Program-made: the position numbers and the translations under genes
Notes under the pieces: generated by a model
What the model was told of the DNA's origin: nothing
Seen by the model: the letters and a program-made list of their open reading frames with translations, nothing else
Databases searched by the model: none
Shown here: piece after piece, positions 45,001-64,000 of the stretch
Position numbering within the stretch: position 1 is the stretch's first letter
How the letters are laid out: every line of letters begins with the position of its first letter
Assembly: GCA_964057225.1 (NCBI GenBank)
Contig: OZ059895.1
Coordinates: 4,464,001-4,528,000 of the forward strand
Direction of reading: 5' to 3'
Origin: Auanema rhodensis
Taxonomy: Eukaryota > Animalia > Nematoda
Length of the DNA stretch: 64,000 bases

Positions 45001-48000
45001 GAATGCACTATACTTCATTGAGAAACGCTTAATACAAAAATTAGTTATGATCGTTTGAAAAATGATGCATTAGTGTATGTTGAGTTTCCATGTACACTCA
45101 ACATTGCTTCCAAAAACATTTTGACAAAAATTTTTTCGAAAAATTTCAAAATAATTTAGCAAAAAGTAGATGTTTTTAGATTCCTTTTTTCAAGGCAAAG
45201 ACGATGGACAATGTTATTCAACGAAAAAATTAATTCTTCAGGGTGAAAATCGAGGATATAAGTGTGAACTTATATCAGTTGATATCTCGGTGCATTTTCA
45301 AGCTAGCGCAAATCTGATAACACAGATCGACGCAGCTTAAAAATCCGCATCGAATGCACTATACTTCATTGAGAAACGCTTAATACAAAAATTAGTTATG
45401 ATCGTTTGAAAAATGATGCATTAGTGTATGTTGAGTTTCCATGTACACTCAACATTGCTTCCAAAAACATTTTGACAAAAATTTTTTCGAAAAATTTCAA
45501 AATAATTTAGCAAAAAGTAGATGTTTTTAGATTCCTTTTTTCAAGGCAAAGACGATGGACAATGTTATTCAACGAAAAAATTAATTCTTCAGGGTGAAAA
45601 TCGAGGATATAAGTGTGAACTTATATCAGTTGATATCTCGGTGCATTTTCAAGCTAGCGCAAATCTGATAACACAGATCGACGCAGCTTAAAAATCTGCA
45701 TCGAATGCACTATACTTCATTGAGAAACGCTTAATACAAAAATTAGTTATGATTGTTTGAAAAATGATGCATTAGTGTATGTTGAGTTTCCATGTACACT
45801 CAACATTGCTTCCAAAAACATTTTGACAAAAATTTTTTCGAAAAATTTCAAAATAATTTAGCAAAAAGTAGATGTTTTTAGATTCCTTTTTTCAAGGCAA
45901 AGATGATGGACAATGTTATTCAACGAAAAAATCAATTCTTCAGGGTGAAAATCGAGGATATAAGTGTGAACTTATATCAGTTGATATCTCGGTGCATTTT
46001 CAAGCTAGCGCAAATCTGATAACACAGATCGACGCAGCTTAAAAATCCGCATCGAATGCACTATACTTCATTGAGAAACGCTTAATACAAAAATTAGTTA
46101 TGATCGTTTGAAAAATGATGCATTAGTGTATGTTGAGTTTCCATGTACACTCAACATTGCTTCCAAAAACATTTTGACAAAAATTTTTTCGAAAAATTTC
46201 AAAATAATTTAGCAAAAAGTAGATGTTTTTAGATTCCTTTTTTCAAGGCAAAGACGATGGACAATGTTATTCAACGAAAAAATTAATTCTTCAGGGTGAA
46301 AATCGAGGATATAAGTGTGAACTTATATCAGTTGATATCTCGGTGCATTTTCAAGCTAGCGCAAATCTGATAACACAGATCGACGCAGCTTAAAAATCCG
46401 CATCGAATGCACTATACTTCATTGAGAAACGCTTAATACAAAAATTAGTTATGATCGTTTGAAAAATGATGCATTAGTGTATGTTGAGTTTCCATGTACA
46501 CTCAACATTGCTTCCAAAAACATTTTGACAAAAATTTTTTCGAAAAATTTCAAAATAATTTAGAAAAAGTAGATGTTTTTAGATTCCTTTTTTCAAGGCA
46601 AAGACGATGGACAATGTTATTCAACGAAAAAATTAATTCTTCAGGGTGAAAATCGAGGATATAAGTGTGAACTTATATCAGTTGATATCTCGGTGCATTT
46701 TTAAGCTAGCGCAAATCTGATAACACAGATCGACGCAGCTTAAAAATCCGCATCGAATGCACTATACTTCATTGAGAAACGCTTAATACAAAAATTAGTT
46801 ATGATCGTTTGAAAAATGATGCATTAGTGTATGTTGAGTTTCCATGTACACTCAACATTGCTTCCAAAAACATTTTGACAAAAATTTTTTCGAAAAATTT
46901 CAAAATAATTTAGCAAAAAGTAGATGTTTTTAGATTCCTTTTTTCAAGGCAAAGATGATGGACAATGTTATTCAACGAAAAAATCAATTCTTCAGGGTGA
47001 AAATCGAGGATATAAGTGTGAACTTATATCAGTTGATATCTCGGTGCATTTTCAAGCTAGCGCAAATCTGATAACACAGATCGACGCAGCTTAAAAATCC
47101 GCATCGAATGCACTATACTTCATTGAGAAACGCTTAATACAAAAATTAGTTATGATCGTTTGAAAAATGATGCATTAGTGTATGTTGAGTTTCCATGTAC
47201 ACTCAACATTGCTTCCAAAAACATTTTGACAAAAATTTTTTCGAAAAATTTCAAAATAATTTAGCAAAAAGTAGATGTTTTTAGATTCCTTTTTTCAAGG
47301 CAAAGGCGATGGACAATGTTATTCAACGAAAAAATTAATTCTTCAGGGTGAAAATCGAGGATATAAGTGTGAACATATATCAGTTGATATCTCGGTGCAT
47401 TTTCAAGCTAGCGCAAATCTGATAACACAGATCGACGCAGCTTAAAAATCCGCATCGAATGCACTATACTTCATTGAAAAACGCTTAATACAAAAATTAG
47501 TTATGATCGTTTGAAAAATGATGCATTAGTGTATGTTGAGTTTCCATGTACACTCAACATTGCTTCCAAAAACATTTTGACAAAAATTTTTTCGAAAAAT
47601 TTCAAGATAATTTAGCAAAAAGTAGATGTTTTTAGATTCCTTTTTTCAAGGCAAAGACGATGGACAATGTTATTCAACGAAAAAATTAATTCTTCAGGGT
47701 GAAAATCGAGGATATAAGTGTGAACTTATATCAGTTGATATCTCGGTGCATTTTCAAGCTAGCGCAAATCTGATAACACAGATCGACGCAGCTTAAAAAT
47801 CCGCATCGAATGCACTATACTTCATTGAGAAACGCTTAATACAAAAATTAGTTATGATCGTTTGAAAAATGATTTATTAGTGTATGTTGAGTTTCCATGT
47901 ACACTCAACATTGCTTCCAAAAACATTTTGACAAAAATTTTTTCGAAAAATTTCAAAATAATTTAGCAAAAAGTAGATGTTTTTAGATTCCTTTTTTCAA

Positions 48001-51000
48001 GGCAAAGGCGATGGACAATGTTATTCAACGAAAAAATTAATTCTTCAGGGTGAAAATCGAGGATATAAGTGTGAACATATATCAGTTGATATCTCGGTGC
48101 ATTTTCAAGCTAGCGCAAATCTGATAACACAGATCGACGCAGCTTAAAAATCCGCATCGAATGCACTATACTTCATTGAAAAACGCTTAATACAAAAATT
48201 AGTTATGATCGTTTGAAAAATGATGCATTAGTGTATGTTGAGTTTCCATGTACACTCAACATTGCTTCCAAAAACATTTTGACAAAAATTTTTTCGAAAA
48301 ATTTCAAGATAATTTAGCAAAAAGTAGATGTTTTTAGATTCCTTTTTTCAAGGCAAAGACGATGGACAATGTTATTCAACGAAAAAATTAATTCTTCAGG
48401 GTGAAAATCGAGGATATAAGTGTGAACTTATATCAGTTGATATCTCGGTGCATTTTCAAGCTAGCGCAAATCTGATAACACAGATCGACGCAGCTTAAAA
48501 ATCCGCATCGAATGCACTATACTTCATTGAGAAACGCTTAATACAAAAATTAGTTATGATCGTTTGAAAAATGATGCATTAGTGTATGTTGAGTTTCCAT
48601 GTACACTCAACATTGCTTCCAAAAACATTTTGACAAAAATTTTTTCGAAAAATTTCAAAATAATTTAGCGAAAAGTAGATGTTTTTAGATTCCTTTTTTC
48701 AAGGCAAAGATGATGGACATTGTTATTCAACGAAAAAATTAATTCTTCAGGGTGAAAATCGAGGATATAAGTGTGAACATATATCAGTTGATATCTCGGT
48801 GCATTTTCAAGCTAGCGCAAATCTGATAACACAGATCGACGCAGCTTAAAAATCCGCATCGAATGCACTATACTTCATTGAGAAACGCTTAATACAAAAA
48901 TTAGTTATGATCGTTTGAAAAATGATGCATTAGTGTATGTTGAGTTTCCATGTACACTCAACATTGCTTCCAAAAACATTTTGACAAAAATTTTTTCGAA
49001 AAATTTCAAAATAATTTAGCAAAAAGTAGATGTTTTTAGATTCCTTTTTTCAAGGCAAAGATGATGGACAATGTTATTCAACGAAAAAATCAATTCTTCA
49101 GGGTGAAAATCGAGGATATAAGTGTGAACTTATATCAGTTGATATCTCGGTGCATTTTCAAGCTAGCGCAAATCTGATAACACAGATCGACGCAGCTTAA
49201 AAATCCGCATCGAATGCACTATACTTCATTGAGAAACGCTTAATACAAAAATTAGTTATGATCGTTTGAAAAATGATGCATTAGTGTATGTTGAGTTTCC
49301 ATGTACACTCAACATTGCTTCCAAAAACATTTTGACAAAAATTTTTTCGAAAAATTTCAAAATAATTTAGCAAAAAGTAGATGTTTTTAGATTCCTTTTT
49401 TCAAGGCAAAGATGATGGACAATGTTATTCAACGAAAAAATCAATTCTTCAGGGTGAAAATCGAGGATATAAGTGTGAACTTATATCAGTTGATATCTCG
49501 GTGCATTTTCAAGCTAGCGCAAATCTGATAACACAGATCGACGCAGCTTAAAAATCCGCATCGAATGCACTATACTTCATTGAGAAACGCTTAATACAAA
49601 AATTAGTTATGATCGTTTGAAAAATGATGCATTAGTGTATGTTGAGTTTCCATGTACACTCAACATTGCTTCCAAAAACATTTTGACAAAAATTTTTTCG
49701 AAAAATTTCAAAATAATTTAGCAAAAAGTAGATGTTTTTAGATTCCTTTTTTCAAGGCAAAGATGATGGACAATGTTATTCAACGAAAAAATCAATTCTT
49801 CAGGGTGAAAATCGAGGATATAAGTGTGAACTTATATCAGTTGATATCTCGGTGCATTTTCAAGCTAGCGCAAATCTGATAACACAGATCGACGCAGCTT
49901 AAAAATCCGCATCGAATGCACTATACTTCATTGAGAAACGCTTAATACAAAAATTAGTTATGATCGTTTGAAAAATGATGCATTAGTGTATGTTGAGTTT
50001 CCATGTACACTCAACATTGCTTCCAAAAACATTTTGACAAAAATTTTTTCGAAAAATTTCAAAATAATTTAGCAAAAAGTAGATGTTTTTAGATTCCTTT
50101 TTTTAAGGCAAAAATGATGGACAATGTTATTCAACGAAAAAATCAATTCTTCAGGGTGAAAATCGAGGATATAAGTGTGAACTTATATCAGTTGATATCT
50201 CGGTGCATTTTCAAGCTAGCGCAAATCTGATAACACAGATCGACGCAGCTTAAAAATCCGCATCGAATGCACTATACTTCATTGAGAAACGCTTAATACA
50301 AAAATTAGTTATGATCGTTTGAAAAATGATGCATTAGTGTATGTTGAGTTTCCATGTACACTCAACATTGCTTCCAAAAACATTTTGACAAAAATTTTTT
50401 CGAAAAATTTCAAAATAATTTAGCAAAAAGTAGATGTTTTTAGATTCCTTTTTTAAGGCAAAAATGATGGACAATGTTATTAAACGAAAAAATTAATTCT
50501 TCAGGGTGAAAATCGAGGATATAAGTGTGAACTTATATCAGTTGATATCTCGGTGCATTTTCAAGCTAGCGCAAATCTGATAACACAGATCGACGCAGCT
50601 TAAAAATCCGCATCGAATGCACTATACTACATTGAGAAACGCTTAATACAAAAATTAGTTATGATCGTTTGAAAAATGATGCATTAGTGTATGTTGAGTT
50701 TCCATGTACACTCAACATTGCTTCCAAAAACATTTTGACAAAAATTTTTTCGAAAAATTTCAAAATAATTTAGCAAAAAGTAGATGTTTTTAGATTCCTT
50801 TTTTCAAGGCAAAGACGATGGACAATGTTATTCAACGAAAAAATTAATTCTTCAGGGTGAAAATCGAGGATATAAGTGTGAACTTATATCAGTTGATATC
50901 TCGGTGCATTTTCAAGCTAGCGCAAATCTGATAACACAGATCGACGCAGCTTAAAAATCCGCATCGAATGCACTATACTTCATTGAGAAACGCTTAATAC

Positions 51001-54000
51001 AAAAATTAGTTATGATCGTTTGAAAAATGATGCATTAGTGTATGTTGAGTTTCCATGTACACTCAACATTGCTTCCAAAAACATTTTGACAAAAATTTTT
51101 TCGAAAAATTTCAAAATAATTTAGCAAAAAGTAGATGTTTTTAGATTCCTTTTTTCAAGGCAAAGATGATGGACAATGTTATTCAACGAAAAAATCAATT
51201 CTTCAGGGTGAAAATCGAGGATATAAGTGTGAACTTATATCAGTTGATATCTCGGTGCATTTTCAAGCTAGCGCAAATCTGATAACACAGATCGACGCAG
51301 CTTAAAAATCCGCATCGAATGCACTATACTTCATTGAGAAACGCTTAATACAAAAATTAGTTATGATCGTTTGAAAAATGATGCATTAGTGTATGTTGAG
51401 TTTCCATGTACACTCAACATTGCTTCCAAAAACATTTTGACAAAAATTTTTTCGAAAAATTTCAAAATAATTTAGCAAAAAGTAGATGTTTTTAGATTCC
51501 TTTTTTCAAGGCAAAGACGATGGACAATGTTATTCAACGAAAAAATTAATTCTTCAGGGTGAAAATCGAGGATATAAGTGTGAACTTATATCAGTTGATA
51601 TCTCGGTGCATTTTCAAGCTAGCGCAAATCTGATAACACAGATCGACGCAGCTTAAAAATCCGCATCGAATGCACTATACTTCATTGAGAAACGCTTAAT
51701 ACAAAAATTAGTTATGATCGTTTGAAAAATGATGCATTAGTGTATGTTGAGTTTCCATGTACACTCAACATTGCTTCCAAAAACATTTTGACAAAAATTT
51801 TTTCGAAAAATTTCAAGATAATTTAGCGAAAAGTAGATGTTTTTAGATTCCTTTTTTCAAGGCAAAGATGATGGACAATGTTATTCAACGAAAAAATTAA
51901 TTCTTCACGGTGAAAATCGAGGATATAAGTGTGAACATATATCAGTTGATATCTCGGTGCATTTTCAAGCTAGCGCAAATCTGATAACACAGATCGACGC
52001 AGCTTAAAAATCCGCATCGAATGCACTATACTTCATTGAGAAACGCTTAATACAAAAATTAGTTATGATCGTTTGAAAAATGATGCATTAGTGTATGTTG
52101 AGTTTCCATGTACACTCAACATTGCTTCCAAAAACATTTTGACAAAAATTTTTTCGAAAAATTTCAAAATAATTTAGCGAAAAGTAGATGTTTTTAGATT
52201 CCTTTTTTCAAGGCAAAGATGATGGACAATGTTATTCAACGAAAAAATTAATTCTTCAGGGTGAAAATCGAGGATATAAGTGTGAACATATATCAGTTGA
52301 TATCTCGGTGCATTTTCAAGCTAGCGCAAATCTGATAACACAGATCGACGCAGCTTAAAAATCCGCATCGAATGCACTATACTTCATTGAGAAACGCTTA
52401 ATACAAAAATTAGTTATGATCGTTTGAAAAATGATTTATTAGTGTATGTTGAGTTTCCATGTACACTCAACATTGCTTCCAAAAACATTTTGACAAAAAT
52501 TTTTTCGAAAAATTTCAAAATAATTTAGCAAAAAGTAGATGTTTTTAGATTCCTTTTTTCAAGGCAAAGGCGATGGACAATGTTATTCAACGAAAAAATT
52601 AATTCTTCAGGGTGAAAATCGAGGATATAAGTGTGAACATATATCAGTTGATATCTCGGTGCATTTTCAAGCTAGCGCAAATCTGATAACACAGATCGAC
52701 GCAGCTTAAAAATCCGCATCGAATGCACTATACTTCATTGAAAAACGCTTAATACAAAAATTAGTTATGATCGTTTGAAAAATGATGCATTAGTGTATGT
52801 TGAGTTTCCATGTACACTCAACATTGCTTCCAAAAACATTTTGACAAAAATTTTTTCGAAAAATTTCAAGATAATTTAGCAAAAAATAGATGTTTTTAGA
52901 TTCCTTTTTTCAAGGCAAAGACGATGGACAATGTTATTCAACGAAAAAATTAATTCTTCAGGGTGAAAATCGAGGATATAAGTGTGAACTTATATTAGTT
53001 GATATCTCGGTGCATTTTTAAGCTAGCGCAAATCTGATAACACAGATCGACGCAGCTTAAAAATCCGCATCGAATGCACTATACTTCATTGAGAAACGCT
53101 TAATACAAAAATTAGTTATGATCGTTTGAAAAATGATGCATTAGTGTATGTTGAGTTTCCATGTACACTCAACATTGCTTCCAAAAACATTTTGACAAAA
53201 ATTTTTTCGAAAAATTTCAAAATAATTTAGCGAAAAGTAGATGTTTTTAGATTCCTTTTTTCAAGGCAAAGATGATGGACATTGTTATTCAACGAAAAAA
53301 TTAATTCTTCAGGGTGAAAATCGAGGATATAAGTGTGAACATATATCAGTTGATATCTCGGTGCATTTTCAAGCTAGCGCAAATCTGATAACACAGATCG
53401 ACGCAGCTTAAAAATCCGCATCGAATGCACTATACTTCATTGAGAAACGCTTAATACAAAAATTAGTTATGATCGTTTGAAAAATGATGCATTAGTGTAT
53501 GTTGAGTTTCCATGTACACTCAACATTGCTTCCAAAAACATTTTGACAAAAATTTTTTCGAAAAATTTCAAAATAATTTAGCAAAAAGTAGATGTTTTTA
53601 GATTCCTTTTTTCAAGGCAAAGATGATGGACAATGTTATTCAACGAAAAAATCAATTCTTCAGGGTGAAAATCGAGGATATAAGTGTGAACTTATATCAG
53701 TTGATATCTCGGTGCATTTTCAAGCTAGCGCAAATCTGATAACACAGATCGACGCAGCTTAAAAATCCGCATCGAATGCACTATACTTCATTGAGAAACG
53801 CTTAATACAAAAATTAGTTATGATCGTTTGAAAAATGATGCATTAGTGTATGTTGAGTTTCCATGTACACTCAACATTGCTTCCAAAAACATTTTGACAA
53901 AAATTTTTTCGAAAAATTTCAAAATAATTTAGCAAAAAGTAGATGTTTTTAGATTCCTTTTTTCAAGGCAAAGATGATGGACAATGTTATTCAACGAAAA

Positions 54001-56306
54001 AATCAATTCTTCAGGGTGAAAATCGAGGATATAAGTGTGAACTTATATCAGTTGATATCTCGGTGCATTTTCAAGCTAGCGCAAATCTGATAACACAGAT
54101 CGACGCAGCTTAAAAATCCGCATCGAATGCACTATACTTCATTGAGAAACGCTTAATACAAAAATTAGTTATGATCGTTTGAAAAATGATGCATTAGTGT
54201 ATGTTGAGTTTCCATGTACACTCAACATTGCTTCCAAAAACATTTTGACAAAAATTTTTTCGAAAAATTTCAAAAAAATTTAGCAAAAAGTAGATGTTTT
54301 TAGATTCCTTTTTTTAAGGCAAAAATGATGGACAATGTTATTCAACGAAAAAATCAATTCTTCAGGGTGAAAATCGAGGATATAAGTGTGAACTTATATC
54401 AGTTGATATCTCGGTGCATTTTCAAGCTAGCGCAAATCTGATAACACAGATCGACGCAGCTTAAAAATCCGCATCGAATGCACTATACTTCATTGAGAAA
54501 CGCTTAATAAAAAAATTAGTTATGATCGTTTGAAAAATGATGCATTAGTGTATGTTGAGTTTCCATGTACACTCAACATTGCTTCCAAAAACATTTTGAC
54601 AAAAATTTTTTCGAAAAATTTCAAAATAATTTAGCAAAAAGTAGATGTTTTTAGATTCCTTTTTTAAGGCAAAAATGATGGACAATGTTATTAAACGAAA
54701 AAATTAATTCTTCAGGGTGAAAATCGAGGATATAAGTGTGAACTTATATCAGTTGATATCTCGGTGCATTTTCAAGCTAGCGCAAATCTGATAACACAGA
54801 TCGACGCAGCTTAAAAATCCGCATCGAATGCACTATACTACATTGAGAAACGCTTAATACAAAAATTAGTTATGATCGTTTGAAAAATGATGCATTAGTG
54901 TATGTTGAGTTTCCATGTACACTCAACATTGCTTCCAAAAACATTTTGACAAAAATTTTTTCGAAAAATTTCAAAATAATTTAGCAAAAAGTAGATGTTT
55001 TTAGATTCCTTTTTTTAAGGCAAAAATGATGGACAATGTTATTCAACGAAAAAATCAATTCTTTAGGGTGAAAATCGAGGATATAAGTGTGAACTTATAT
55101 CAGTTGATATCTCGGTGCATTTTCAAGCTAGCGCAAATCTGATAACACAGATCGACGCAGCTTAAAAATCCGCATCGAATGCACTATACTTCATTGAGAA
55201 ACGCTTAATACAAAAATTAGTTATGATCGTTTGAAAAATGATGCATTAGTGTATGTTGAGTTTCCATGTACACTCAACATTGCTTCCAAAAACATTTTGA
55301 CAAAAATTTTTTCGAAAAATTTCAAAATAATTTAGCAAAAAGTAGATGTTTTTAGATTCCTTTTTTAAGGCAAAAATGATGGACAATGTTATTAAACGAA
55401 AAAATTAATTCTTCAGGGTGAAAATCGAGGATATAAGTGTGAACTTATATCAGTTGATATCTCGGTGCATTTTCAAGCTAGCGCAAATCTGATAACACAG
55501 ATCGACGCAGCTTAAAAATCCGCATCGAATGCACTATACTACATTGAGAAACGCTTAATACAAAAATTAGTTATGATCGTTTGAAAAATGATGCATTAGT
55601 GTATGTTGAGTTTCCATGTACACTCAACATTGCTTCCAAAAACATTTTGACAAAAATTTTTTCGAAAAATTTCAAAATAATTTAGCAAAAAGTAGATGTT
55701 TTTAGATTCCTTTTTTCAAGGCAAAGACGATGGACAATGTTATTCAACGAAAAAATTAATTCTTCAGGGTGAAAATCGAGGATATAAGTGTGAACTTATA
55801 TCAGTTGATATCTCGGTGCATTTTCAAGCTAGCGCAAATCTGATAACACAGATCGACGCAGCTTAAAAATCCGCATCGAATGCACTATACTACATTGAGA
55901 AACGCTAAATACAAAAATTAGTTATGATCGTCTGAAAAATGATGCATTAGTGTATGTTGAGTTTCCATGTACACTCAACATTGCTTCCAAAAACATTTTG
56001 ACAAAAATTTTTTCGAAAAATTTCAAAATAATTTAGCAAAAAGTAGATGTTTTTAAATTCCTTTATTCGAGGCAAAGATGATGGACAATGTTATTCAACG
56101 AAAAAACTTCAGGGTGAAAATCGAGGATATAAGTGTGAACTTATATCAGTTGATATCTCGGTGCATTTTCAAGCTAGCGCAAATCTGATAACACAGATCG
56201 ACGCAGCTTAAAAATCCGCATCGAATGCACTATACTACATTGAGAAACGCTTAATACAAAAATTAGTTATGATCGTTTGAAAAATGATGCATTAGTGTAT
56301 GTTGAG
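1..56306. repeat. Satellite DNA array: ~160 head-to-tail copies of a 351-bp AT-rich monomer, continuing off the left edge
   Basis: The monomer start AGTTGATATCTCGGTGCATT recurs at 1, 352, 703, 1054 and onward (period 351). Copies differ by a few substitutions and rare 1-bp indels. The last full copy (55803-56147) is more diverged, and the final copy is truncated at ...GTGTATGTTGAG (56306). Confidence 0.99.
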
Positions 56307-56967
56307 CGTTCCGTTATGCTCCCGCGTCGATCTTACAGACCAATGGAGTCTACAAGATGAGCGTGGTAGTATTCCAGATGTAGCGGTTAAACATGGAGCA
56401 TAAGGATAAACATAAGACTCGAGAAAGATTGGTTTATTATATCTACGTGATTACAATAAGATACATATAACTAAGTAAAGGTTAAACTAATAGAGAACAG
56501 AGAGAGAACGACCAACCATCCATGATCGTCCCTGAGGCAAAGCTGAAGTGTTGTAATATGGAAAAGGGCGGGTCGTCTTCTCTCAGTCTCGCATTCTCTG
56601 ACTCTAACCCGCCTGCTACAGCTTCGTCATATGAATGTAATGCATTGATCATCCGAATGGAACGTGCCCTTTTTCGAGTTTATGTCGCGTCCTCGCGACA
56701 ATCAAAAGTTTTGACTTGATTAACTGTAGCAGAAGGGTTAATGTGTGTATTAAAGTACATGTTACAATACAATATTTTACGTAAAATTCTTATAATATGA
56801 ACATAATACAATATAAAACATCAGTATCTGAAAAGAATTAAAAAAAATTTTTTTAACCAAATTATGAAAGTTTTAACCCTCTTTAACGAATACTAGACTA
56901 TGTTTTATTGGCGAACGTGCTTATAAAATAATAAAAAAAAAAAGTTTTTAAGCATAACGCTCCAACA
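56300..56967 (-). mobile_element. 668-bp TG...CA element with terminal inverted repeats and a 6-bp TSD; probable solo LTR (BEL/Pao-like TGTT...AACA ends)
   Basis: The left end reads TGTTGAGCGTTCCGTTATGCT. The right end reads AGCATAACGCTCCAACA (reverse complement TGTTGGAGCGTTATGCT). AGTGTA lies immediately on both sides (56294-56299, 56968-56973). The strand is tentative, based on a minus-strand AATAAA at 56433-56438. No PPT or PBS adjoins the right end. Confidence 0.7.
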
Positions 56968-56973
56968 AGTGTA
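56968..56973. repeat. Right copy of putative target-site duplication AGTGTA (left copy 56294-56299)
   Basis: An exact 6-bp direct repeat abuts both the TG and the CA terminus of the 668-bp element. Confidence 0.65.
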
Positions 56974-57222
56974 GATAAAAAATTAACTATTTTTTTGCTA
57001 GAGCTCGGTTGTTTGTTTCAATTTGTGTGAGTTTAGAAAAAAAAGAAAAGTTTTGCGTAATACCAAATAACTTCCAAATTGAGTCATTGATTACTCAAGT
57101 GAAGACTGTTGCTCAGATATTGTTGCAAACTATGTCTTTCATTTTTCATCTCATCTAGTATGGGGAAGTTAGTTGAAATTAGGAAGGTTCGAACTATATG
57201 ATAAAAGAATTATCTTCTCACA
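56970..57222 (-). repeat. Candidate (possibly truncated) 3' LTR of the gypsy element, with a weak PPT at 57223-57234
   Basis: The + strand reads TGTAGATA... at 56970 and ...TATCTTCTCACA at 57222. On the minus strand GAACACGGGAAA precedes TGTGAG. The 5' LTR is not in the window, so this cannot be confirmed. Confidence 0.3.
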
Positions 57223-57360
57223 TTTCCCGTGTTCATTATGCTCTAGTTTACTTTTTTGACTTAAGAGTGACTTGTTTTAGAGGAGTCGTTACAAAATTTG
57301 TGTTCTAGTATTACTTTAAAGAAAGTTATTACAAAACAATTTACAATAAAATCTCATGAG

Positions 57361-60300
57361 TTAATGGTTTTTTCTTGATGGTAGCCAATTTGTATCCGAA
57401 AGGTCTTCTGGTTCGTCATAAGAGTCTTCATCGTTGTTGTTTCCGTTGATAACCTCTATGATTTCAATATCGCTGTCATCGTCTGAGCTGTCTGTACGTG
57501 TACTGGGCTTATGTGCGATTCCGTCATCTGTTTCTCGATTAAATAATTTGAGATTGTCCTTGTGAACGTCTTGGATCTTTCCGAAAAGGTTTTTGATTTG
57601 AACCATGTTTCCCTTCACATTAATAACTTCAAATGGTCCATCATAAGCTTTCCGAAGCTTTTGTCCTGGCTTGTGCATTTTCACAGCTAACATAACGCAG
57701 TCTCCTTCTTGTATATCTCTTTCGTGAGTGCGTAATCGAGCATCATGTTTCTTTTTTGCTAATTCTTGATGCTTTTCCAAATTTTCTTGAATGATTGTTT
57801 TCTGTTTGCTTCGGATTTTCTCAATATTTTCAACCTCCTTTGAAATTTCCTTTGGTTCAGTTGTTTCGGGGTATAAATCTTTATCCAATCTCAAACGGCT
57901 TTCTTTCCCGAATAGTACAACGTATGGTGATATTCCTGTGGTTGCATGCGTTGTGGTGTTCAATGCAAAGGTAATTTTTGGCAAAAACATGTCCCAATCA
58001 GTGACATCTTCGTTGAGATAATGTGTGAGTCCTTCTTCTAACGTTCTATGAAGTCTTTCTACTTGTCCATTGGAATTCTTCTGATGTGGGAGTGTTGATT
58101 CATGTTTGATACCGAGTTTTTCGCACATGTCTTCAAATTTCCTTGATAGGAAGTTGGAACCGCGGTCTGTTATTAAGCGGTTCGGTGGTCCATAGACATA
58201 TACAAAGTTTCTGAGGAATCTATCAATGACAACTTCACTAACAATTGTTGGTATGGCGATAGTTGTAGCCCATTTGGAGAAAGAGTCTTGTATTGTGAGG
58301 ACATAGCTGTTGTTCCTTTTTGATGTTGGGAATGGTCCCATGATATCCATATGTATTCTCTCAAATGGTTTTGATGGTATGTTAAATTGACCCATCGGTT
58401 GTACGGTCATAGCATGAGGATCTTTCTTTCGTTGTGCACATTTGATGCACTGTTTTACGTATTTTGCTATGTCGTTCTGCATGTTAGTCCAGGAAAATCT
58501 TCGTAATATGGCTTCTTTTGTTTTGTTGATTCCTTGATGCGCCCCGATTGTTGGGTCTTCATGAAATTCTTCAATGATTTTGTTAATTATATCACTATCC
58601 GATGGCAATATTAACGCTGGATGAGGTCTTTTGACGCTTGGTTTTGTGTAGAGTAAGTTGTTTATAACACAATAACGGTCATTTTGAATCATATTTTTCT
58701 TCGTTCTGTATTCAATCTCAGCTATTGTTCTCTTGATCCAAGGAGTATTTTGTTGGATTGAGCTGAATTCTGGTAACTTCACAACATTTACTTGTTGTGT
58801 CTCAATTTTCTCTTTCGAATTCGTCTTTTGTTTCTTGTTCGACGTCTTTGGATCGTTAGCTTCATCTCCAATGTATCTAGAGAGTGCGTCACAGACTTTG
58901 TTTAATCTGCCTTCTCGATATTTGATCTCAATATCGTATTCCTGTATGACCAATTGGAACTTTGCTAGTCTTCCAAATAGGTCTCTTCTAGTTAGTAAGC
59001 TTGTCAATGGGCGATGATCGGTGATGCAAATTGAATGTGATCCAAGTATGTATGTTCGAAACTGTGCTAGAGCGTAAACTAAGCCTAAGGCTTCTATCTC
59101 TATGGGAGCATAGTTACGTTCTGCTTTTACTAATTTCCTACTTGCGAAAGCAATTGGATGTAAGTTCTTGAATGGTTCGTTTGGATCTTCGGGCTGCAGT
59201 AATACTGCGCCTATGATGTTGCTGCCATCACTTTCAATGATGAAAGTTCGGTCTGATCGTGGTGGTTTCAGTACCGGTGCTTCGATTAGTCGTTCCTTTA
59301 GCTTATCTAGTGAACGTTGACATTCGCTAGTCCAATTGAAGTCTGCGTCTAGCTTAGTAAGGTCATACAGCGGACTTGCTATATGTGCAAAATCTTTAAT
59401 AAATTTTCTAAAGAATCCGACCATTCCTAAGAATGCTCTTACTCCTGTGGGTGTTTGAGGAGCAGGGTAATCGCGGATGGCGGAAACTTTCTGTTGATCG
59501 GGCTTAACTCCGTCTCTTCCGACAATGAGTCCGAGAAATTTCACTTCTGGTCTTGCAAATGAACATTTCTTGAGTTTAATCTTAAATCCTAGTCTTTCTA
59601 CAGCGAGTAATACTTCTTTGATGTCTTCGAGGTGTTGTTCTGCGCTGTCTGATATGACTAGTAAATCGTCCAAATAGACAAATAGTCGGCATTTACATTT
59701 ACTTTGGAGATATCTCACGGCTGTTTGAAAGGTATGTGGCGCACCACATAATCCCATAGGCATTCTCCTGTACTGATAAGTCCCACTATTGGTGGTAAAG
59801 GATGTGAGTGGTCTATCCTTCTTCAATAATGGTATTTGGAAAAAGCCAGAAACAAGATCAAAATTAGAAAAGTATTGTGATCCAGCCGCTAAGTCAATGA
59901 TATCAGAGATGTTAGGAATCACATATGTCTGTTTTCTTGTAACGTTATTTAAGGCTCGGAAATCCGTAACGAAACGGAATGTTTCGTCTTTTTTCTTAAC
60001 GAGAACGACAGGGCTGTTGAACAAAGATGTCGATCGTTCTATTATCCCTTGCTCGAGCATTTCTTGGACTTGTTTTTCTACCTCTTCTTGTTTCCCGAGA
60101 GGTATACGTGAAATTCGTGGCTTTGGCATATCCATATCCGTTCGTAGTGGTATCTTGTGTTCTACTGGTCCTTTGAACAATCCTATCTTTTTATCTTCAT
60201 TGAGGAATGCCTTCTTACGCTGACGAATGATGTTTCGTAGTTCGTCTTTTTGTCGTTGCGTAAGATCAGCCTCTTTTAGGTCAAGTTCTTTCATGAAATC

Positions 60301-63300
60301 ACCAGGGAAGTGAGGTAATTTGCCTTCCCAGTCTGCTTCTGGTGGAATATAGTCGTACTGTTGTTCTGTTGAGAAGATTTCATAGTCCGGTATAGATCCT
60401 ATTTCGGCTTCTGCAATCACAGTGCCGGCCGGTATTTCTATGAATTCTTTAGAATTGTTCCGGAATTGGATATTGATGGAGTTAACATCGCGAAATGCTG
60501 TGTCGTATCGAGGTGAGAGAGGAGTATTGTCGTTTGGTTTAATCATAGCGATTAAGTCTTCTCCGATTGGGTTCTCTAATTGGACTTGGAAATTAAAAAC
60601 TTGTCGAGGAAGTAGACTCCGCGGCTCCAAGGTTATCAAATTAACAGTTTTTGATATCCTGTTAATATCCCCGTTAATTCCGCTAGCCAAAGGTACTACA
60701 TGATTTCCAATTTCCAGTGTTCTTTTGTATGGTCTTAGTTTCATGCCAATGTTTTGACAGTCAAGTGTTTTCATGAAATCTAATCCAATCAACGCTGGCG
60801 ATGGACAGTCTTTGTCGTCTGATATGAAGAATGTATGGTCGATTTCGTAACCGGCTATTTCGACGGTTAAGTCGATAGTACCAATGAATACAAATTCTGA
60901 TCCGTTCGCTGTTGTTGCTCTTAATGTATTCTTCTTAACAAAGTCATTCAAAGCTAAGTAGTGTAGTGTCGATATTCTTATGTAACTGACGGACGAACCT
61001 GAGTCCCATAAAGTTAGGATCAGTCTATCATTAACAGTCATCCATAGAAGTGGTAGTGCTTGATCTTTCTTTTTGGAAATCGAGCAAACTAATGGTAGTG
61101 CGATTGGTATGAATGTGAGCATTGATGGATAGTATTGTTTCATTATGTGTCTTGGAATCGGTTGATCCGGATGACTAACTAATTCCAAAGTTTCTTCGTA
61201 TGTTGGTAGATCACTGTCGTGATCTTTGAGTGCAATATGCATAACTGGTATGCCTACTGGTTTGAAGAAATAGATCTTTACAATGAAACCTATCACAAAG
61301 AGTATGATGGTAAATAATGTAATTGCACCGATCGTTATTAGTGTTCGCTCAATCGTTCCTGCAATTGTATCGATGAATGACTTCCATGTGCTCTTGGTGA
61401 ATTCTTGAGCTTTCGATATGTAGTCGCTACTTTTCTTTAGTACACTGAATGTAGCTGATATCTTTGGATCATTGTGAATTGTGTGAAGAACGTGATTCTG
61501 ACGAATCGATGCTAAACTCGCACCGTAAGCTATGGCTGTGGTCATTGAGTATACACGAGACGATAAATTAGTGTATAAGTGAGCTCCGGTGAATTTTAAT
61601 GGTGTTATTTTTTCGTGATGAAGTCCGTCCCACATTGATACAAGACTGACGTCTGCAGTCCCATTAATTCCTTTCCATTCACCTTCGCTAGACCAGATAT
61701 CTGTTGGTACGTGATCACAGCTTATTTCTTTACCATGAGGTAAAAGATCCTTGGATCCGGGTGCTGCAAACAGTAACTGTCCGTCTTGTGTCCAGACTGG
61801 GGTTTCGAGATAGCATGTGCCATTTACGGTGTGATTGTGATAAATGGTTTTCTCTAGCACTGTAGGGCATACATGTATATGCAAAATTTCATTGCCTACA
61901 AACCGTGCGGCTATATCTTCTCTTCCCAGTATTGTTCGCATTGCGATTGTTGGTTCAATTTGTAGAATTGATTTCCATAATTCCAGATACCGATTTTGTA
62001 TCTCGCAAATCGATTCGTATGATTCTTCAAAATGTTTCTGCAATTCCTCTTGGATCATTGTAGTAGCATACTGTAAATGATCTTGGGCTATTTTGTTCGA
62101 TATATTTTGACGAAACTCTTGTACCGAGTCAATTTTCGTTGCTATGTATCTCGCATTTGCTTCCACTAAATTTGAGGTTTCTACTGATGGTGTTGAAGAA
62201 GCTCGGTTTTTTCGAATCAATGTTGGAGAGGCTTCGGTTGTCTCTTGTATTTTTGGAATCTGTGCGTCTTTGTATATGGCATAGCTTCTTGTTGTTGTTG
62301 GCGAACGAGCGGTTGATGTTGTGGTGCGTGCTGTTGTCGCAGCGGTCGTGTGAGGCGCCGTTGTTGATGGCTGTTGCTTCCATGATGGTGCTCTTGTGGT
62401 GGTTGATGCATTTGTGTGAGGATTGTTCGTTATTTGCGGCTGTATTGTGGTAACTGATTGGATTGTTCCCTTCTGTTCGATCAAAGGTTGGACTGGTGTC
62501 ACAACCGCGCCGCTAGCCGCGCCGCCTGCAGCGACGCTAGCCGCGCCGCCTGCCGCGACGCTGGATGTCCGTGTTGCGATTTGCCGAAAATTTGTTTCAT
62601 TTTCCTCTGCCATTAAGATTTGAAGTTGTTCTTGTGTTATCCTACTTGATGTATAAGGTGTTTTTACATTATTGAGCAGGGGTAAAAATATTTCCAATAA
62701 TAATTTCTTTGAAAGATTGCTGGGCTTGATCAGCTTAGGGTGTGGACCGATCGGTATTCCATAATTATTCTTCCTGTCATAAAATAGTTTATCTGTATTT
62801 GGCATGAATTGTCGTGATGCTGGCAATTTTATAAATTTTCTGTCATCAATAAATGCTGCAGTTTTATTCCATCGTACTGTTGTGAGGGTTTTTAGTTCTC
62901 TTAGTAAATTGATCGTTGCCTTAATGAATTCGCTTTTCTTCTGTTCCTCGTCAGTTAGTATACGTTTCCTTATTGGTGGCATTTGTATGAACGTTTGTAG
63001 GACTTCTTGTCGTGATGGAACTGTCAGTCCTTCTTCAATTATAACTGGTGTATTGGTTAAATTGAGAGCTATGCTTTCAATTCGTTCGCGATATGAACCT
63101 TCTTTCTTCCTTATGATTTCATCGAATTCGATTACTGTCAAACGATCTGATATTTGTTCGAGAAGCTGTTCAGATGTTAAGTATGATATTGCTGCCTTTG
63201 TAGTAATGGCTAATTCTCTTTGTGCTATATAATATAGCAGAGCTTCTTCTTTATCACTGAAATCGTATTGCTTGAGAAAATGTCGAACAGAATGTTCATT

Positions 63301-63999
63301 TATTTGAATTCTGAAGAAAAATTCGAATTTTTCTTTATGTGATGTTATCCATGCCTTTAGAGAGTATGTTGGATCTACTAAACGTCTTCCTTTGATTATA
63401 GGAATAATTGAAGTAATACCGGGATTACTCATTAATGGTCTTAGGAAAGTATATGGACAGACGTGAAGCAATACTGTTTCATAATCTTCAACTTCGTTGA
63501 TCCGATCTTGATCCAGTGGGAAAGAACATCCTTCGGTGACTGCACGTTTTGGTCTTTTAAACGGCAGCTTTTTGAACTCTCTTTCAATAAGGGTGGTTAT
63601 ATTGTTGTCGTTTGGAAATTTAGGAAGAATGATATAATTTCCTGATGTCGTATGGAACGCTGGCTGCCTGAAGCAAGAAGAAATAGGTTTCGGAGTTGGT
63701 TTGCTCGAAAGAATAAGTGCCGATTGTGTACTAGGGATTAAAATAGTATCTTGACTAATGATAGCGTCATATGTATGCATATCGATGTAATTACAACGTG
63801 AAGCAGTGGTTTGTGGGTCCCATATTATTATTGATGTACTTGATTCACAATTACCATGATGTGCATTGCATCCTTCCGTGTTTAATATTAAGTTTGACAA
63901 TATTGTATCGTCAGGCATACGGGTCATGACTCCGCGCTCTAATATTAGACGTGACCGCTCCTCGCACGCGTCGCGGTTGAACGCGCGCGCTGGGTCATA
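57361..63999 (-). CDS. Env(gB-like)-TM-PR-RT-RNaseH-IN polyprotein, 5'-partial
   Basis: ORF track gives 57361..63927 (2188 aa). I translated the frame upstream of that Met and found no stop to the window edge (YDPARAFNRDACEERSRLILERGV-MTRMPDD), so the true start probably lies outside the window. Stop TAA at 57361-57363; no internal stops or frameshifts. Confidence 0.95.
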   Translation of the reverse strand, partial: YDPARAFNRDACEERSRLILERGVMTRMPDDTILSNLILNTEGCNAHHGNCESSTSIIIWDPQTTASRCNYIDMHTYDAIISQDTILIPSTQSALILSSKPTPKPISSCFRQPAFHTTSGNYIILPKFPNDNNITTLIEREFKKLPFKRPKRAVTEGCSFPLDQDRINEVEDYETVLLHVCPYTFLRPLMSNPGITSIIPIIKGRRLVDPTYSLKAWITSHKEKFEFFFRIQINEHSVRHFLKQYDFSDKEEALLYYIAQRELAITTKAAISYLTSEQLLEQISDRLTVIEFDEIIRKKEGSYRERIESIALNLTNTPVIIEEGLTVPSRQEVLQTFIQMPPIRKRILTDEEQKKSEFIKATINLLRELKTLTTVRWNKTAAFIDDRKFIKLPASRQFMPNTDKLFYDRKNNYGIPIGPHPKLIKPSNLSKKLLLEIFLPLLNNVKTPYTSSRITQEQLQILMAEENETNFRQIATRTSSVAAGGAASVAAGGAASGAVVTPVQPLIEQKGTIQSVTTIQPQITNNPHTNASTTTRAPSWKQQPSTTAPHTTAATTARTTTSTARSPTTTRSYAIYKDAQIPKIQETTEASPTLIRKNRASSTPSVETSNLVEANARYIATKIDSVQEFRQNISNKIAQDHLQYATTMIQEELQKHFEESYESICEIQNRYLELWKSILQIEPTIAMRTILGREDIAARFVGNEILHIHVCPTVLEKTIYHNHTVNGTCYLETPVWTQDGQLLFAAPGSKDLLPHGKEISCDHVPTDIWSSEGEWKGINGTADVSLVSMWDGLHHEKITPLKFTGAHLYTNLSSRVYSMTTAIAYGASLASIRQNHVLHTIHNDPKISATFSVLKKSSDYISKAQEFTKSTWKSFIDTIAGTIERTLITIGAITLFTIILFVIGFIVKIYFFKPVGIPVMHIALKDHDSDLPTYEETLELVSHPDQPIPRHIMKQYYPSMLTFIPIALPLVCSISKKKDQALPLLWMTVNDRLILTLWDSGSSVSYIRISTLHYLALNDFVKKNTLRATTANGSEFVFIGTIDLTVEIAGYEIDHTFFISDDKDCPSPALIGLDFMKTLDCQNIGMKLRPYKRTLEIGNHVVPLASGINGDINRISKTVNLITLEPRSLLPRQVFNFQVQLENPIGEDLIAMIKPNDNTPLSPRYDTAFRDVNSINIQFRNNSKEFIEIPAGTVIAEAEIGSIPDYEIFSTEQQYDYIPPEADWEGKLPHFPGDFMKELDLKEADLTQRQKDELRNIIRQRKKAFLNEDKKIGLFKGPVEHKIPLRTDMDMPKPRISRIPLGKQEEVEKQVQEMLEQGIIERSTSLFNSPVVLVKKKDETFRFVTDFRALNNVTRKQTYVIPNISDIIDLAAGSQYFSNFDLVSGFFQIPLLKKDRPLTSFTTNSGTYQYRRMPMGLCGAPHTFQTAVRYLQSKCKCRLFVYLDDLLVISDSAEQHLEDIKEVLLAVERLGFKIKLKKCSFARPEVKFLGLIVGRDGVKPDQQKVSAIRDYPAPQTPTGVRAFLGMVGFFRKFIKDFAHIASPLYDLTKLDADFNWTSECQRSLDKLKERLIEAPVLKPPRSDRTFIIESDGSNIIGAVLLQPEDPNEPFKNLHPIAFASRKLVKAERNYAPIEIEALGLVYALAQFRTYILGSHSICITDHRPLTSLLTRRDLFGRLAKFQLVIQEYDIEIKYREGRLNKVCDALSRYIGDEANDPKTSNKKQKTNSKEKIETQQVNVVKLPEFSSIQQNTPWIKRTIAEIEYRTKKNMIQNDRYCVINNLLYTKPSVKRPHPALILPSDSDIINKIIEEFHEDPTIGAHQGINKTKEAILRRFSWTNMQNDIAKYVKQCIKCAQRKKDPHAMTVQPMGQFNIPSKPFERIHMDIMGPFPTSKRNNSYVLTIQDSFSKWATTIAIPTIVSEVVIDRFLRNFVYVYGPPNRLITDRGSNFLSRKFEDMCEKLGIKHESTLPHQKNSNGQVERLHRTLEEGLTHYLNEDVTDWDMFLPKITFALNTTTHATTGISPYVVLFGKESRLRLDKDLYPETTEPKEISKEVENIEKIRSKQKTIIQENLEKHQELAKKKHDARLRTHERDIQEGDCVMLAVKMHKPGQKLRKAYDGPFEVINVKGNMVQIKNLFGKIQDVHKDNLKLFNRETDDGIAHKPSTRTDSSDDDSDIEIIEVINGNNNDEDSYDEPEDLSDTNWLPSRKNH
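57530..58565 (-). other. Integrase: HHCC zinc finger, DD(35)E core, GPF C-terminal module
   Basis: FHEDPTIGAH...CIKC; D at 58345-58347 (IHMDIMGP), D at 58165-58167 (TDRGSNF), E at 58057-58059 (NGQVER), with 35 residues between the second D and E; GPF at 57631-57639. An acidic tail follows; no chromodomain is evident. Confidence 0.96.
58876..59247 (-). other. RNase H domain
   Basis: IESDGS..IGAVLLQ, PIAFASRKL..AERNYAPIEIEALG, TDHRPL, N.VCDALSR. Confidence 0.95.
59518..60125 (-). other. Reverse transcriptase domain (Ty3/gypsy type)
   Basis: SPVVLVKKKDETFRFVTDFRALN, DLVSGFFQIPL, MPMGLCGAPHTFQ, YLDD (59665-59676), KKCSF, VKFLG. Confidence 0.97.
60760..61050 (-). other. Retropepsin aspartic protease domain
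   Basis: LWDSGSSVSYI (catalytic D at 61003-61005), flap TANGS, and C-terminal ALIGLDFM. Confidence 0.92.
61264..61344 (-). other. Predicted transmembrane helix (aa ~862-888 of the ORF-track protein)
   Basis: TLITIGAITLFTIILFVIGFIVKIYFF has more than 20 uncharged, mostly hydrophobic residues followed by Lys. Confidence 0.9.
62511..62562. repeat. GC-rich 24-bp tandem duplication within the ORF, encoding (SVAAGGAA)x2
   Basis: CGCTAGCCGCGCCGCCTGCAGCGA, then CGCTAGCCGCGCCGCCTGCCGCGA, then CGCT. Confidence 0.9.
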
Positions 64000-64000
64000 G

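What the first reader, a model, noticed from the sequence alone, without database searches (positions are those of the whole stretch)
61700..62090. Envelope is a herpesvirus gB-like class III fusogen in a gypsy element
Seen: LQY..IQ, CEIQN..LW, P.IAM..LGR...ARFVGN, C and CY motifs at spacings matching the gB central helix and domain IV. Established: insect gypsy envs derive from baculovirus F (class I), and Cer7/13 envs are phlebovirus-like (class II). gB-like or chuvirus-G-like envs are known mainly from BEL/Pao elements such as Ascaris Tas. Inference: an independent capture of a class III fusogen by a gypsy lineage, or an exchange with a BEL/Pao element.
Basis: partly seen in the sequence, partly recalled or inferred. 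Interest (0 to 1): 0.85.

Follow-up and report, generated by a model that had tools for sequence, protein, structure and literature searches.

The report
Nematode retroelement with gB-type envelope
This is a young retrovirus-like jumping gene, likely from a roundworm, whose envelope protein matches herpesvirus gB and related class III membrane-fusion proteins and is read in one frame ahead of its enzymes; the match is real, but this kind of element has already been published for nematodes.

Summary
Window 61700-62090 (minus strand) encodes the central helix and domain IV of a class III fusogen: Pfam Monjiviricetes_fusion above its cut-off, profile match to herpesvirus gB at E 2e-12, Foldseek hits to gB and chuvirus-type G. 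It lies in one open frame of at least 2212 aa, env-TM-PR-RT-RH-IN, followed by an LTR inserted in a 351-bp satellite. The novelty claim fails. gB-type env in Ty3/gypsy elements, and the nematode GAG-ENV-POL order, are published (Chary and Hayashi, PMC13524379: 36 of 36 nematode elements; Sacco 2022, title only). The closest relatives are rhabditid-nematode polyproteins with the same layout. Env and RT trees place the window with the same elements, and grouping this env with the BEL/Pao envs is rejected (p-AU 1e-7), so neither a recent independent capture nor a BEL/Pao swap is supported. What I did not find described: a roughly 450-aa insert between domains II and III (furin motif, helical domain, Thr-rich stretch) and LTR ends reading CG...CG. 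Verdict: new member of a known kind; interest 0.2.

The parts
1..56306 (.). 351-bp AT-rich satellite array (about 160 copies, mostly 98-100% alike) into which the element is inserted
56307..56664 (-). 3' LTR, about 358 bp, with inverted ends CGTTCC...GGAACG (CG...CG, not TG...CA); the inner end may be 56665
   Evidence: other flanks begin at 56307 in runs X2, X4, X6 and at 56665 in X4, X6; sequence
56667..56675 (-). polypurine-tract-like stretch, 2 nt before the LTR
   Evidence: sequence; function inferred
56676..57360 (-). AT-rich untranslated stretch after integrase; no ATG-started ORF of 40 aa or more on either strand, so no env after pol
57361..63999 (-). single open frame, 2212 aa, open at the window edge: env (C-terminal part)-TM-PR-RT-RH-IN
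58087..58596 (-). integrase zinc finger and core (aa 1802-1971)
   Evidence: Pfam PF17921, PF00665
58936..59334 (-). RNase H (aa 1556-1688)
   Evidence: Pfam PF17919, PF17917
59524..60000 (-). reverse transcriptase core (aa 1334-1492; YLDD at 1442)
   Evidence: Pfam PF00078 E 1e-30
60769..61038 (-). aspartyl protease (aa 988-1077; DSGS at 999)
   Evidence: Pfam PF13975
61264..61356 (-). single predicted transmembrane anchor of env (about aa 882-912)
   Evidence: only hydrophobic peak in the frame, KD 2.66
61630..61926 (-). gB domain IV-like beta domain (aa 692-790; C711, C729, C761)
   Evidence: AlphaFold pLDDT about 90; top Foldseek hit PRV gB domain IV 5ys2
61927..62190 (-). gB domain III-like central helix (aa 604-691; C665)
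62191..62562 (-). disordered Thr/Ser/Ala-rich, mucin-like stretch (about aa 480-603) with a 24-nt tandem duplication that other copies lack
   Evidence: pLDDT under 50; 42 of 131 residues T or S
63025..63423 (-). inserted, mostly helical folded domain (about aa 193-325); no family assigned
   Evidence: pLDDT about 80 over aa 201-310; homologous in P0127, P0124, P0005, weakly in P0011, P0001
63544..63555 (-). furin-type motif RPKR (aa 149-152) just after domain II
   Evidence: motif in this position in 18 of 29 long-loop proteins against 1.4 expected
63595..63999 (-). likely end of domain I and domain II (aa 1-135; C12, C44, C51, C69, C109); the rest of env, gag and the 5' LTR lie beyond the window
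   Evidence: conserved in relatives; the profile of A4 runs from this part into the gB helix of VZV, EBV and HCMV gB

Best explanation
The window holds the 3' part of a young nematode-type Ty3/gypsy element of the published env-before-pol kind, whose env is a class III (gB/chuvirus-G-type) glycoprotein that likely forms a trimer and fuses membranes so that particles can pass between cells. Shown: one open frame env-TM-PR-RT-RH-IN, the class III match of domains III-IV, conserved cysteines, an LTR with several insertion junctions, and env and RT that share the same nearest relatives. Inferred: gag lies upstream in the same frame, as in relative P0001. The env part would be threaded into the ER and anchored by the TM at aa 882-912, which leaves PR-RT-RH-IN in the cytosol to be released by the element's protease. 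Furin would cut at RPKR after domain II, giving two subunits likely held by disulfides, as in cleaved herpesvirus gB (recalled). The helical domain and Thr-rich stretch would hang from the C-terminal subunit as an exposed accessory or shielding module. The env was inherited within the clade, not captured recently.
For: Pfam; PDB sequence and profile searches; Foldseek PDB, where all 35 rows shown are herpesvirus gB and 28 matches reach E<=0.001; BFVD, with chuvirus, herpes gB, nyamivirus and xinmovirus G. The top Pol relatives are nematode proteins, 53% for P0001, which carries gag, gB-type env and pol in one chain. 54 of 54 proteins with both an env and a gypsy-RT hit have env first. The RT tree puts the window in a 14-row rhabditid clade (FastTree 0.999); the env tree puts it with five Auanema proteins (SH-aLRT 97) inside a 17-row group of the same elements (94). 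RT and env distances correlate (Spearman 0.33, 0 of 999 permutations, 41 rows; kinship alone gives this). Chary and Hayashi describe the class.
Against: Domain I with the fusion loops, the signal or first TM and gag are outside the window, so the fusogen is seen only in part. Structural scores are modest: TM-scores about 0.3, VIA Z 6.9 (rmsd 3.7 over 137 residues of HSV-1 gB), tied with plain coiled coils. PF00606 is below its curated cut-off. Disulfide geometry and the trimer were not tested. No named gypsy reference was in my RT tree. No fusion activity is shown for this protein, and the paper says the entry mechanism of gB-type elements is unknown.
Confidence: 0.9

Rival explanations
1. The env came recently from a BEL/Pao (Tas-like) element by recombination.
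For: BEL/Pao proteins with the same env family exist among the hits: 10 carry Peptidase_A17 or DUF5641. Some sit among other gypsy envs in the env tree.
Against: The window's nearest envs are gypsy-linked nematode proteins at 56-64% identity. A clade of window plus BEL envs is rejected (p-AU 9.8e-8), also with the five Auanema proteins added (p-AU 0.0014), while BEL envs alone are not rejected as a clade (p 0.24). BEL envs have a short domain II-III loop (110-150 between anchor cysteines, 10 of 10) and lie after pol.
Confidence: 0.03
2. The env is an independent, recent capture from a herpesvirus or an RNA virus by this one gypsy lineage.
For: Significant matches to herpes gB and to chuvirus and nyamivirus G.
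Against: Identity to viral proteins is under about 21% in the fold matches, against 25-60% to retroelement envs across nematodes. The same env-pol fusion occurs in Caenorhabditis, Diploscapter, Heterorhabditis, Panagrolaimus, Aphelenchus and others.
Confidence: 0.03
3. The long insert has turned this env into a non-fusing or decoy surface protein, so the element spreads as an ordinary intracellular retrotransposon.
For: The loop is the second longest of 77 measured (596 residues between anchor cysteines, median 158). No activity is shown.
Against: All four cysteines of domains III-IV are kept, the furin motif is kept, the insert sits where relatives also carry long loops (19 of 77 at 300 or more), and the indels listed for other copies within the frame are multiples of three.
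Confidence: 0.1

Closest known systems
HSV/gB-type GAG-ENV-POL 'errantiviruses' of Nematoda (Chary and Hayashi, eLife 2026, PMC13524379; read: abstract, one 10,000-character part with the start of Results, section 6, Discussion part 1, sections 18 and 22, passages, Nematoda rows of supplements 1 and 4)
   Same: Ty3/gypsy pol, gB-type env, env before pol, nematode host, intact frame, several near-identical copies.
   Different: Auanema is not among the 36 nematode rows. The text searched has no 'mucin', 'linker', 'fused' or 'polyprotein', so the long insert and the single-frame fusion are not discussed there in words; its figures (Fig. 5 supplement 1) could not be seen and may show them.
Non-canonical nematode endogenous retroviruses (Sacco et al. 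2022, J Gen Virol 103:1739, PMID 35550022; only the title and how PMC13524379 cites it were seen; paper not held)
   Same: Metavirus with flipped ENV-POL order and a glycoprotein attributed to RNA-virus capture. From recall, it describes a continuous gag-env-pro-pol frame with nyamivirus-like env, which fits.
   Different: Could not check whether it describes the insert or the LTR ends. From recall some members carry an extra small ORF or helicase; none is seen between integrase and LTR here.
Herpesvirus glycoprotein B and Monjiviricetes (chuvirus, nyamivirus, xinmovirus) G
   Same: Central helix, domain IV fold, cysteine positions, furin motif in the domain II-III loop.
   Different: About 20% identity; the loop is several times longer; fused to a retroelement polyprotein; no gH/gL partners seen.
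Ascaris Tas and other BEL/Pao elements with gB-like env (Tas as cited in PMC9094657, passages only)
   Same: Same env family (PF24664).
   Different: BEL/Pao pol, env after pol, short loop; not one clade with this env.

Membership tests
Class III viral fusogen, gB/Monjiviricetes type | significant profile match to the family | tested here: met
   PF24664 52.4 bits against cut-off 27; profile to gB E 1.9e-12
Class III viral fusogen, gB/Monjiviricetes type | long central helix (domain III) followed by beta domain IV | tested here: met
   helix aa 604-681 then beta strands at pLDDT about 90; Foldseek top hit gB domain IV; VIA Z 6.9, rmsd 3.7, 137 aligned, modest on its own
Class III viral fusogen, gB/Monjiviricetes type | conserved cysteines at gB positions | tested here: met
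   C665, C711, C729, C761 invariant in 21 of 21; the first three columns align with gB cysteines
Class III viral fusogen, gB/Monjiviricetes type | gB disulfide pairing in three dimensions | not testable with these tools
   the fold tool returns no coordinates
Class III viral fusogen, gB/Monjiviricetes type | domain II (PH-like) before the loop | tested here: inconclusive
   beta-rich and confidently modelled; included in A4 profile matches to VZV, EBV, HCMV gB; the profile of this part alone found nothing
Class III viral fusogen, gB/Monjiviricetes type | domain I with hydrophobic fusion loops | not testable with these tools
   outside the window; no genome held
Class III viral fusogen, gB/Monjiviricetes type | trimer and fusion activity | not tested
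   no complex job sent; needs the bench
Class III viral fusogen, gB/Monjiviricetes type | C-terminal membrane anchor | tested here: met
   one TM-like segment aa 882-920
Herpesvirus gB proper (Pfam PF00606) | score at or above the curated cut-off | tested here: not met
   38.7 against 43 bits: gB-like, not filed as herpesvirus gB
Ty3/gypsy (Metaviridae) | order PR-RT-RH-IN with gypsy-type domains | tested here: met
Ty3/gypsy (Metaviridae) | RT groups with named gypsy references | tested here: inconclusive
   groups with nematode env-pol elements, but no named reference was in the tree; relative P0001 has Retrotrans_gag and a weak Ty3_capsid hit
BEL/Pao (Belpaoviridae) | Peptidase_A17, DUF1759, DUF5641 domains | tested here: not met
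   none at E<=1 in the 2212-aa frame, while true BEL proteins score them
Nematode GAG-ENV-POL elements | env before pol | tested here: met
   no env after integrase
Nematode GAG-ENV-POL elements | gag upstream of env | not testable with these tools
   outside the window; present in relative P0001
Nematode GAG-ENV-POL elements | nematode host | tested here: inconclusive
   nearest env and RT relatives are named Auanema, Caenorhabditis, Heterorhabditis; the window itself is unnamed and holds no host gene

The most novel reading that the evidence does not exclude
Nematode gB-type envs have turned the furin-cleaved domain II-III loop into a cargo site: here about 450 residues with a folded helical domain of no assigned family and a mucin-like stretch. 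It could serve as a built-in receptor-binding or fusion-triggering module that replaces the gD/gH/gL partners of herpesvirus gB, which would answer how these elements use gB alone.
Probability: 0.2. Interest if true: 0.55.

Novelty: new member of a known kind. Interest (0 to 1): 0.2.

Why it matters
As a claim of a new capture it matters little: the class is in print. The copy is still a useful specimen: intact over the part seen, multi-copy, and probably from a culturable free-living nematode. The open question named by Chary and Hayashi is how gB-type elements enter cells without the herpesvirus helper glycoproteins. The long, furin-flanked loop with a conserved helical domain is a concrete candidate for that role, and I did not find it described in what I could read.

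Tried and rejected
No genome is held, so the upstream part could not be read. The word-indexed protein search with env aa 600-916 found nothing among 1852 candidates, nor with the insert among 1497 longer proteins; both are weak negatives, since full HMMER found 222 env relatives at E<=0.001. Insert: no Pfam family at a useful score, no PDB sequence match (best E 0.19), no Atlas hit for aa 150-480. For aa 191-323 the Atlas gave SPFH/Band_7 at 0.91, but recognition was 2198 (below 2300) with 128 of 256 shared features, so it is only a lead. The fold searches with the 790-aa model were filled by gB and coiled-coil rows, so the insert's fold is untested, not shown to be new. A profile of five Caenorhabditis-type inserts did not detect the window's insert above shuffles; the link to them rests on weak reverse hits (P0011 iE 0.0016, P0001 iE 0.044) and a motif seen by eye. 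The idea that the insert is cut out by two furin sites was dropped: a strict motif at the far end occurs in 3 of 29 against 1.4 expected. Alignment A2 was misaligned and unused; three rows of A3 were misaligned. No RNA holder was listed; two short contigs of depth under 3 in a run only guessed to be RNA say nothing on expression. No Rfam match in 55500-64000. Sacco 2022 is not held and searches found only the paper citing it. No complex job was sent, as a gB-like trimer would likely pass by likeness to solved structures.

Full report
Anatomy. Bases 1-56306 are a 351-bp satellite of about 160 copies. A minus-strand frame runs from the window edge at 63999 to a stop at 57361, 2212 aa without a break. 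Pfam finds, in order, a viral fusion glycoprotein (aa 642-913), aspartyl protease (988-1077), RT (1334-1492), RNase H (1556-1688) and integrase (1802-1971), and no BEL/Pao-specific domain. One hydrophobic segment (aa 882-920) separates env from protease. No ATG-started ORF of 40 aa or more lies between integrase and LTR. So env precedes pol in the same frame, which the finding did not stress.

The observation. For aa 584-916, PF24664 Monjiviricetes_fusion scores 52.4 bits (cut-off 27) and PF00606 Glycoprotein_B 38.7 (cut-off 43). phmmer against PDB sequences gives VZV gB first, E 5e-4. A profile from 39 aligned sequences reaches E 1.9e-12 on HSV-2 gB; 54 of its 58 matches are herpesvirus gB. 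AlphaFold models the helix and the beta domain at pLDDT about 90. Foldseek ranks pseudorabies gB domain IV first (E 7e-5), and all 35 rows shown are gB. In BFVD the best are chuvirus-type G (E 2e-8), then herpes gB, nyamivirus, xinmovirus and entomopoxvirus proteins. Against this, TM-scores are about 0.3 and the VIA Z of 6.2-6.9 ties with unrelated coiled coils, so the sequence profiles carry the case. Four cysteines are invariant in 21 of 21 sequences; in a wider set of 39, two are invariant and two are kept in at least 90%.

Relatives. The Pol search returned 415 proteins (120 listed). The best are nematode polyproteins, most already carrying PF24664 or PF00606: Caenorhabditis auriculariae (53%), Heterorhabditis, C. 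nigoni, C. remanei, Auanema, Diploscapter. P0001 has gag, env and pol in one chain. The env search found 222 relatives; the best four (56-60%) are from Auanema sp. JU1783. Of 168 held proteins with an env hit, 54 also had a gypsy-RT hit, and all 54 have env first. The host is therefore likely a rhabditid nematode; this is inference.

Origin. In an RT/RNase H tree of 86 rows (41 with env, and the first 45 of 99 without), the window is sister to an Auanema protein inside a 14-row rhabditid clade (support 0.999). In an env tree of 55 rows (170 aa of domains III-IV; 44 gypsy-linked, 10 BEL/Pao), it sits with five Auanema proteins (SH-aLRT 97) inside a 17-row group of the same elements (94); half of the inner branches are unresolved. 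Forcing it with the BEL/Pao envs is rejected (p-AU 9.8e-8; 0.0014 with its Auanema kin), while BEL envs alone are not (0.24). Env has travelled with this RT through rhabditid evolution. The first capture lies deeper than these trees resolve, and no viral sequences were included.

Literature. Chary and Hayashi (PMC13524379) classify env of metazoan Ty3/gypsy elements as F-type or HSV/gB-type, 'equally abundant and widespread'. They state that elements of Nematoda, Bryozoa and Platyhelminthes carry only the gB type, in GAG-ENV-POL order, model the five gB domains as trimers and compare them with BEL/Pao gB-like proteins. All 36 nematode rows of their supplement 1 are ENV_HSV; none is Auanema. 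They cite Sacco et al. 2022 for nematode elements with flipped ENV-POL order; I saw only that title. Earlier notes of this scan reached the same verdict for other genomes; they are not independent evidence.

What is left. (a) The loop between domains II and III. The distance between two anchor cysteines is 596 aa here, against a median of 158 in 77 proteins, 110-150 in 10 BEL/Pao envs, and 597 in one Aphelenchus element; 19 of 77 reach 300. It opens with RPKR. A strict furin motif lies in the first 60 residues of the loop in 18 of 29 long-loop proteins against 1.4 expected (related sequences, so not independent). A helical domain follows (pLDDT about 80), shared with three Auanema proteins and weakly with Caenorhabditis ones, then a disordered Thr-rich stretch. 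No family could be assigned and its fold was not properly searched. The eLife text has no 'mucin' or 'linker', but its figures and Sacco 2022 were not visible to me. (b) LTR ends. Other flanks start at 56307 in three runs (two different flanks besides the satellite) and at 56665 in two, which bounds an LTR whose ends read CGTTCC...GGAACG, with a purine tract 2 nt before it. One literature search on such ends returned plant and software papers only, too thin for a novelty claim.

Youth. Contigs of three DNA runs cover the frame with few differences, for example 10 other letters and one 24-nt gap over 61125-64000 in run X4. Of 24 listed differences inside the frame I classed 18 (six from short side contigs were left out, and 15 rows were not shown): 10 synonymous, 8 not, none a stop. 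The two indels listed in the frame are 3 and 24 nt. Several insertion junctions and an unbroken frame fit a recently active family; they do not prove present activity.

Mechanism. Most likely one Gag-Env-Pol polyprotein is made (gag inferred from relatives). Env would be luminal between an upstream signal or TM and the TM at 882-912, and Pol cytosolic and freed by the protease. Furin would cut after domain II, and the trimer would fuse membranes as class III proteins do (established for gB; untested here). The insert would be an exposed accessory part. Confidence in the classification is 0.9; in fusion competence lower, about 0.75.

Verdict. Observation confirmed; interpretation partly supported; a new member of a published kind; interest 0.2.

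Noticed in passing
window 56307-56664: The LTR ends read CG...CG (6-bp inverted repeat) instead of TG...CA; the outer end is fixed by two other flanks at 56307, the inner by one at 56665.
   Followed up: partly
loose end before window 56307 in run X2: This other copy's flank looks by eye like the 5' end of a tRNA gene starting 5 nt from the LTR, as in Ty3-type targeting. One case, 30 letters seen, not tested.
   Followed up: no
window 1-56306: Very homogeneous 351-bp satellite. In Auanema rhodense, large tandem arrays with 167-504-nt units are germline-limited and half of the eliminated genes are TE-like (bioRxiv 10.64898/2026.08.27.747507, passages only). If the host does the same, this copy could be absent from soma, which would not fit a Drosophila-style soma-to-germline route for this copy. 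The host species was not established.
   Followed up: partly
window 62507-62562: 24-nt tandem duplication in the Thr/Ala-rich stretch; contigs of three runs have one unit fewer, in frame.
   Followed up: yes
protein P0010 (C. nigoni): One predicted chain holds a gB-type env with gypsy pol and, further on, DUF5641 with a phlebovirus G2 domain: probably two neighbouring elements joined by gene prediction.
   Followed up: no
protein P0206: A gB-type env in one chain with an Upf1-like AAA_11/AAA_12 helicase; from recall, Sacco 2022 reports such helicases in nematode elements.
   Followed up: no
window 56404, 56652, 56707, 57035: Further loose ends inside or near the LTR and the untranslated stretch suggest truncated copies or a related family sharing short pieces.
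   Followed up: no
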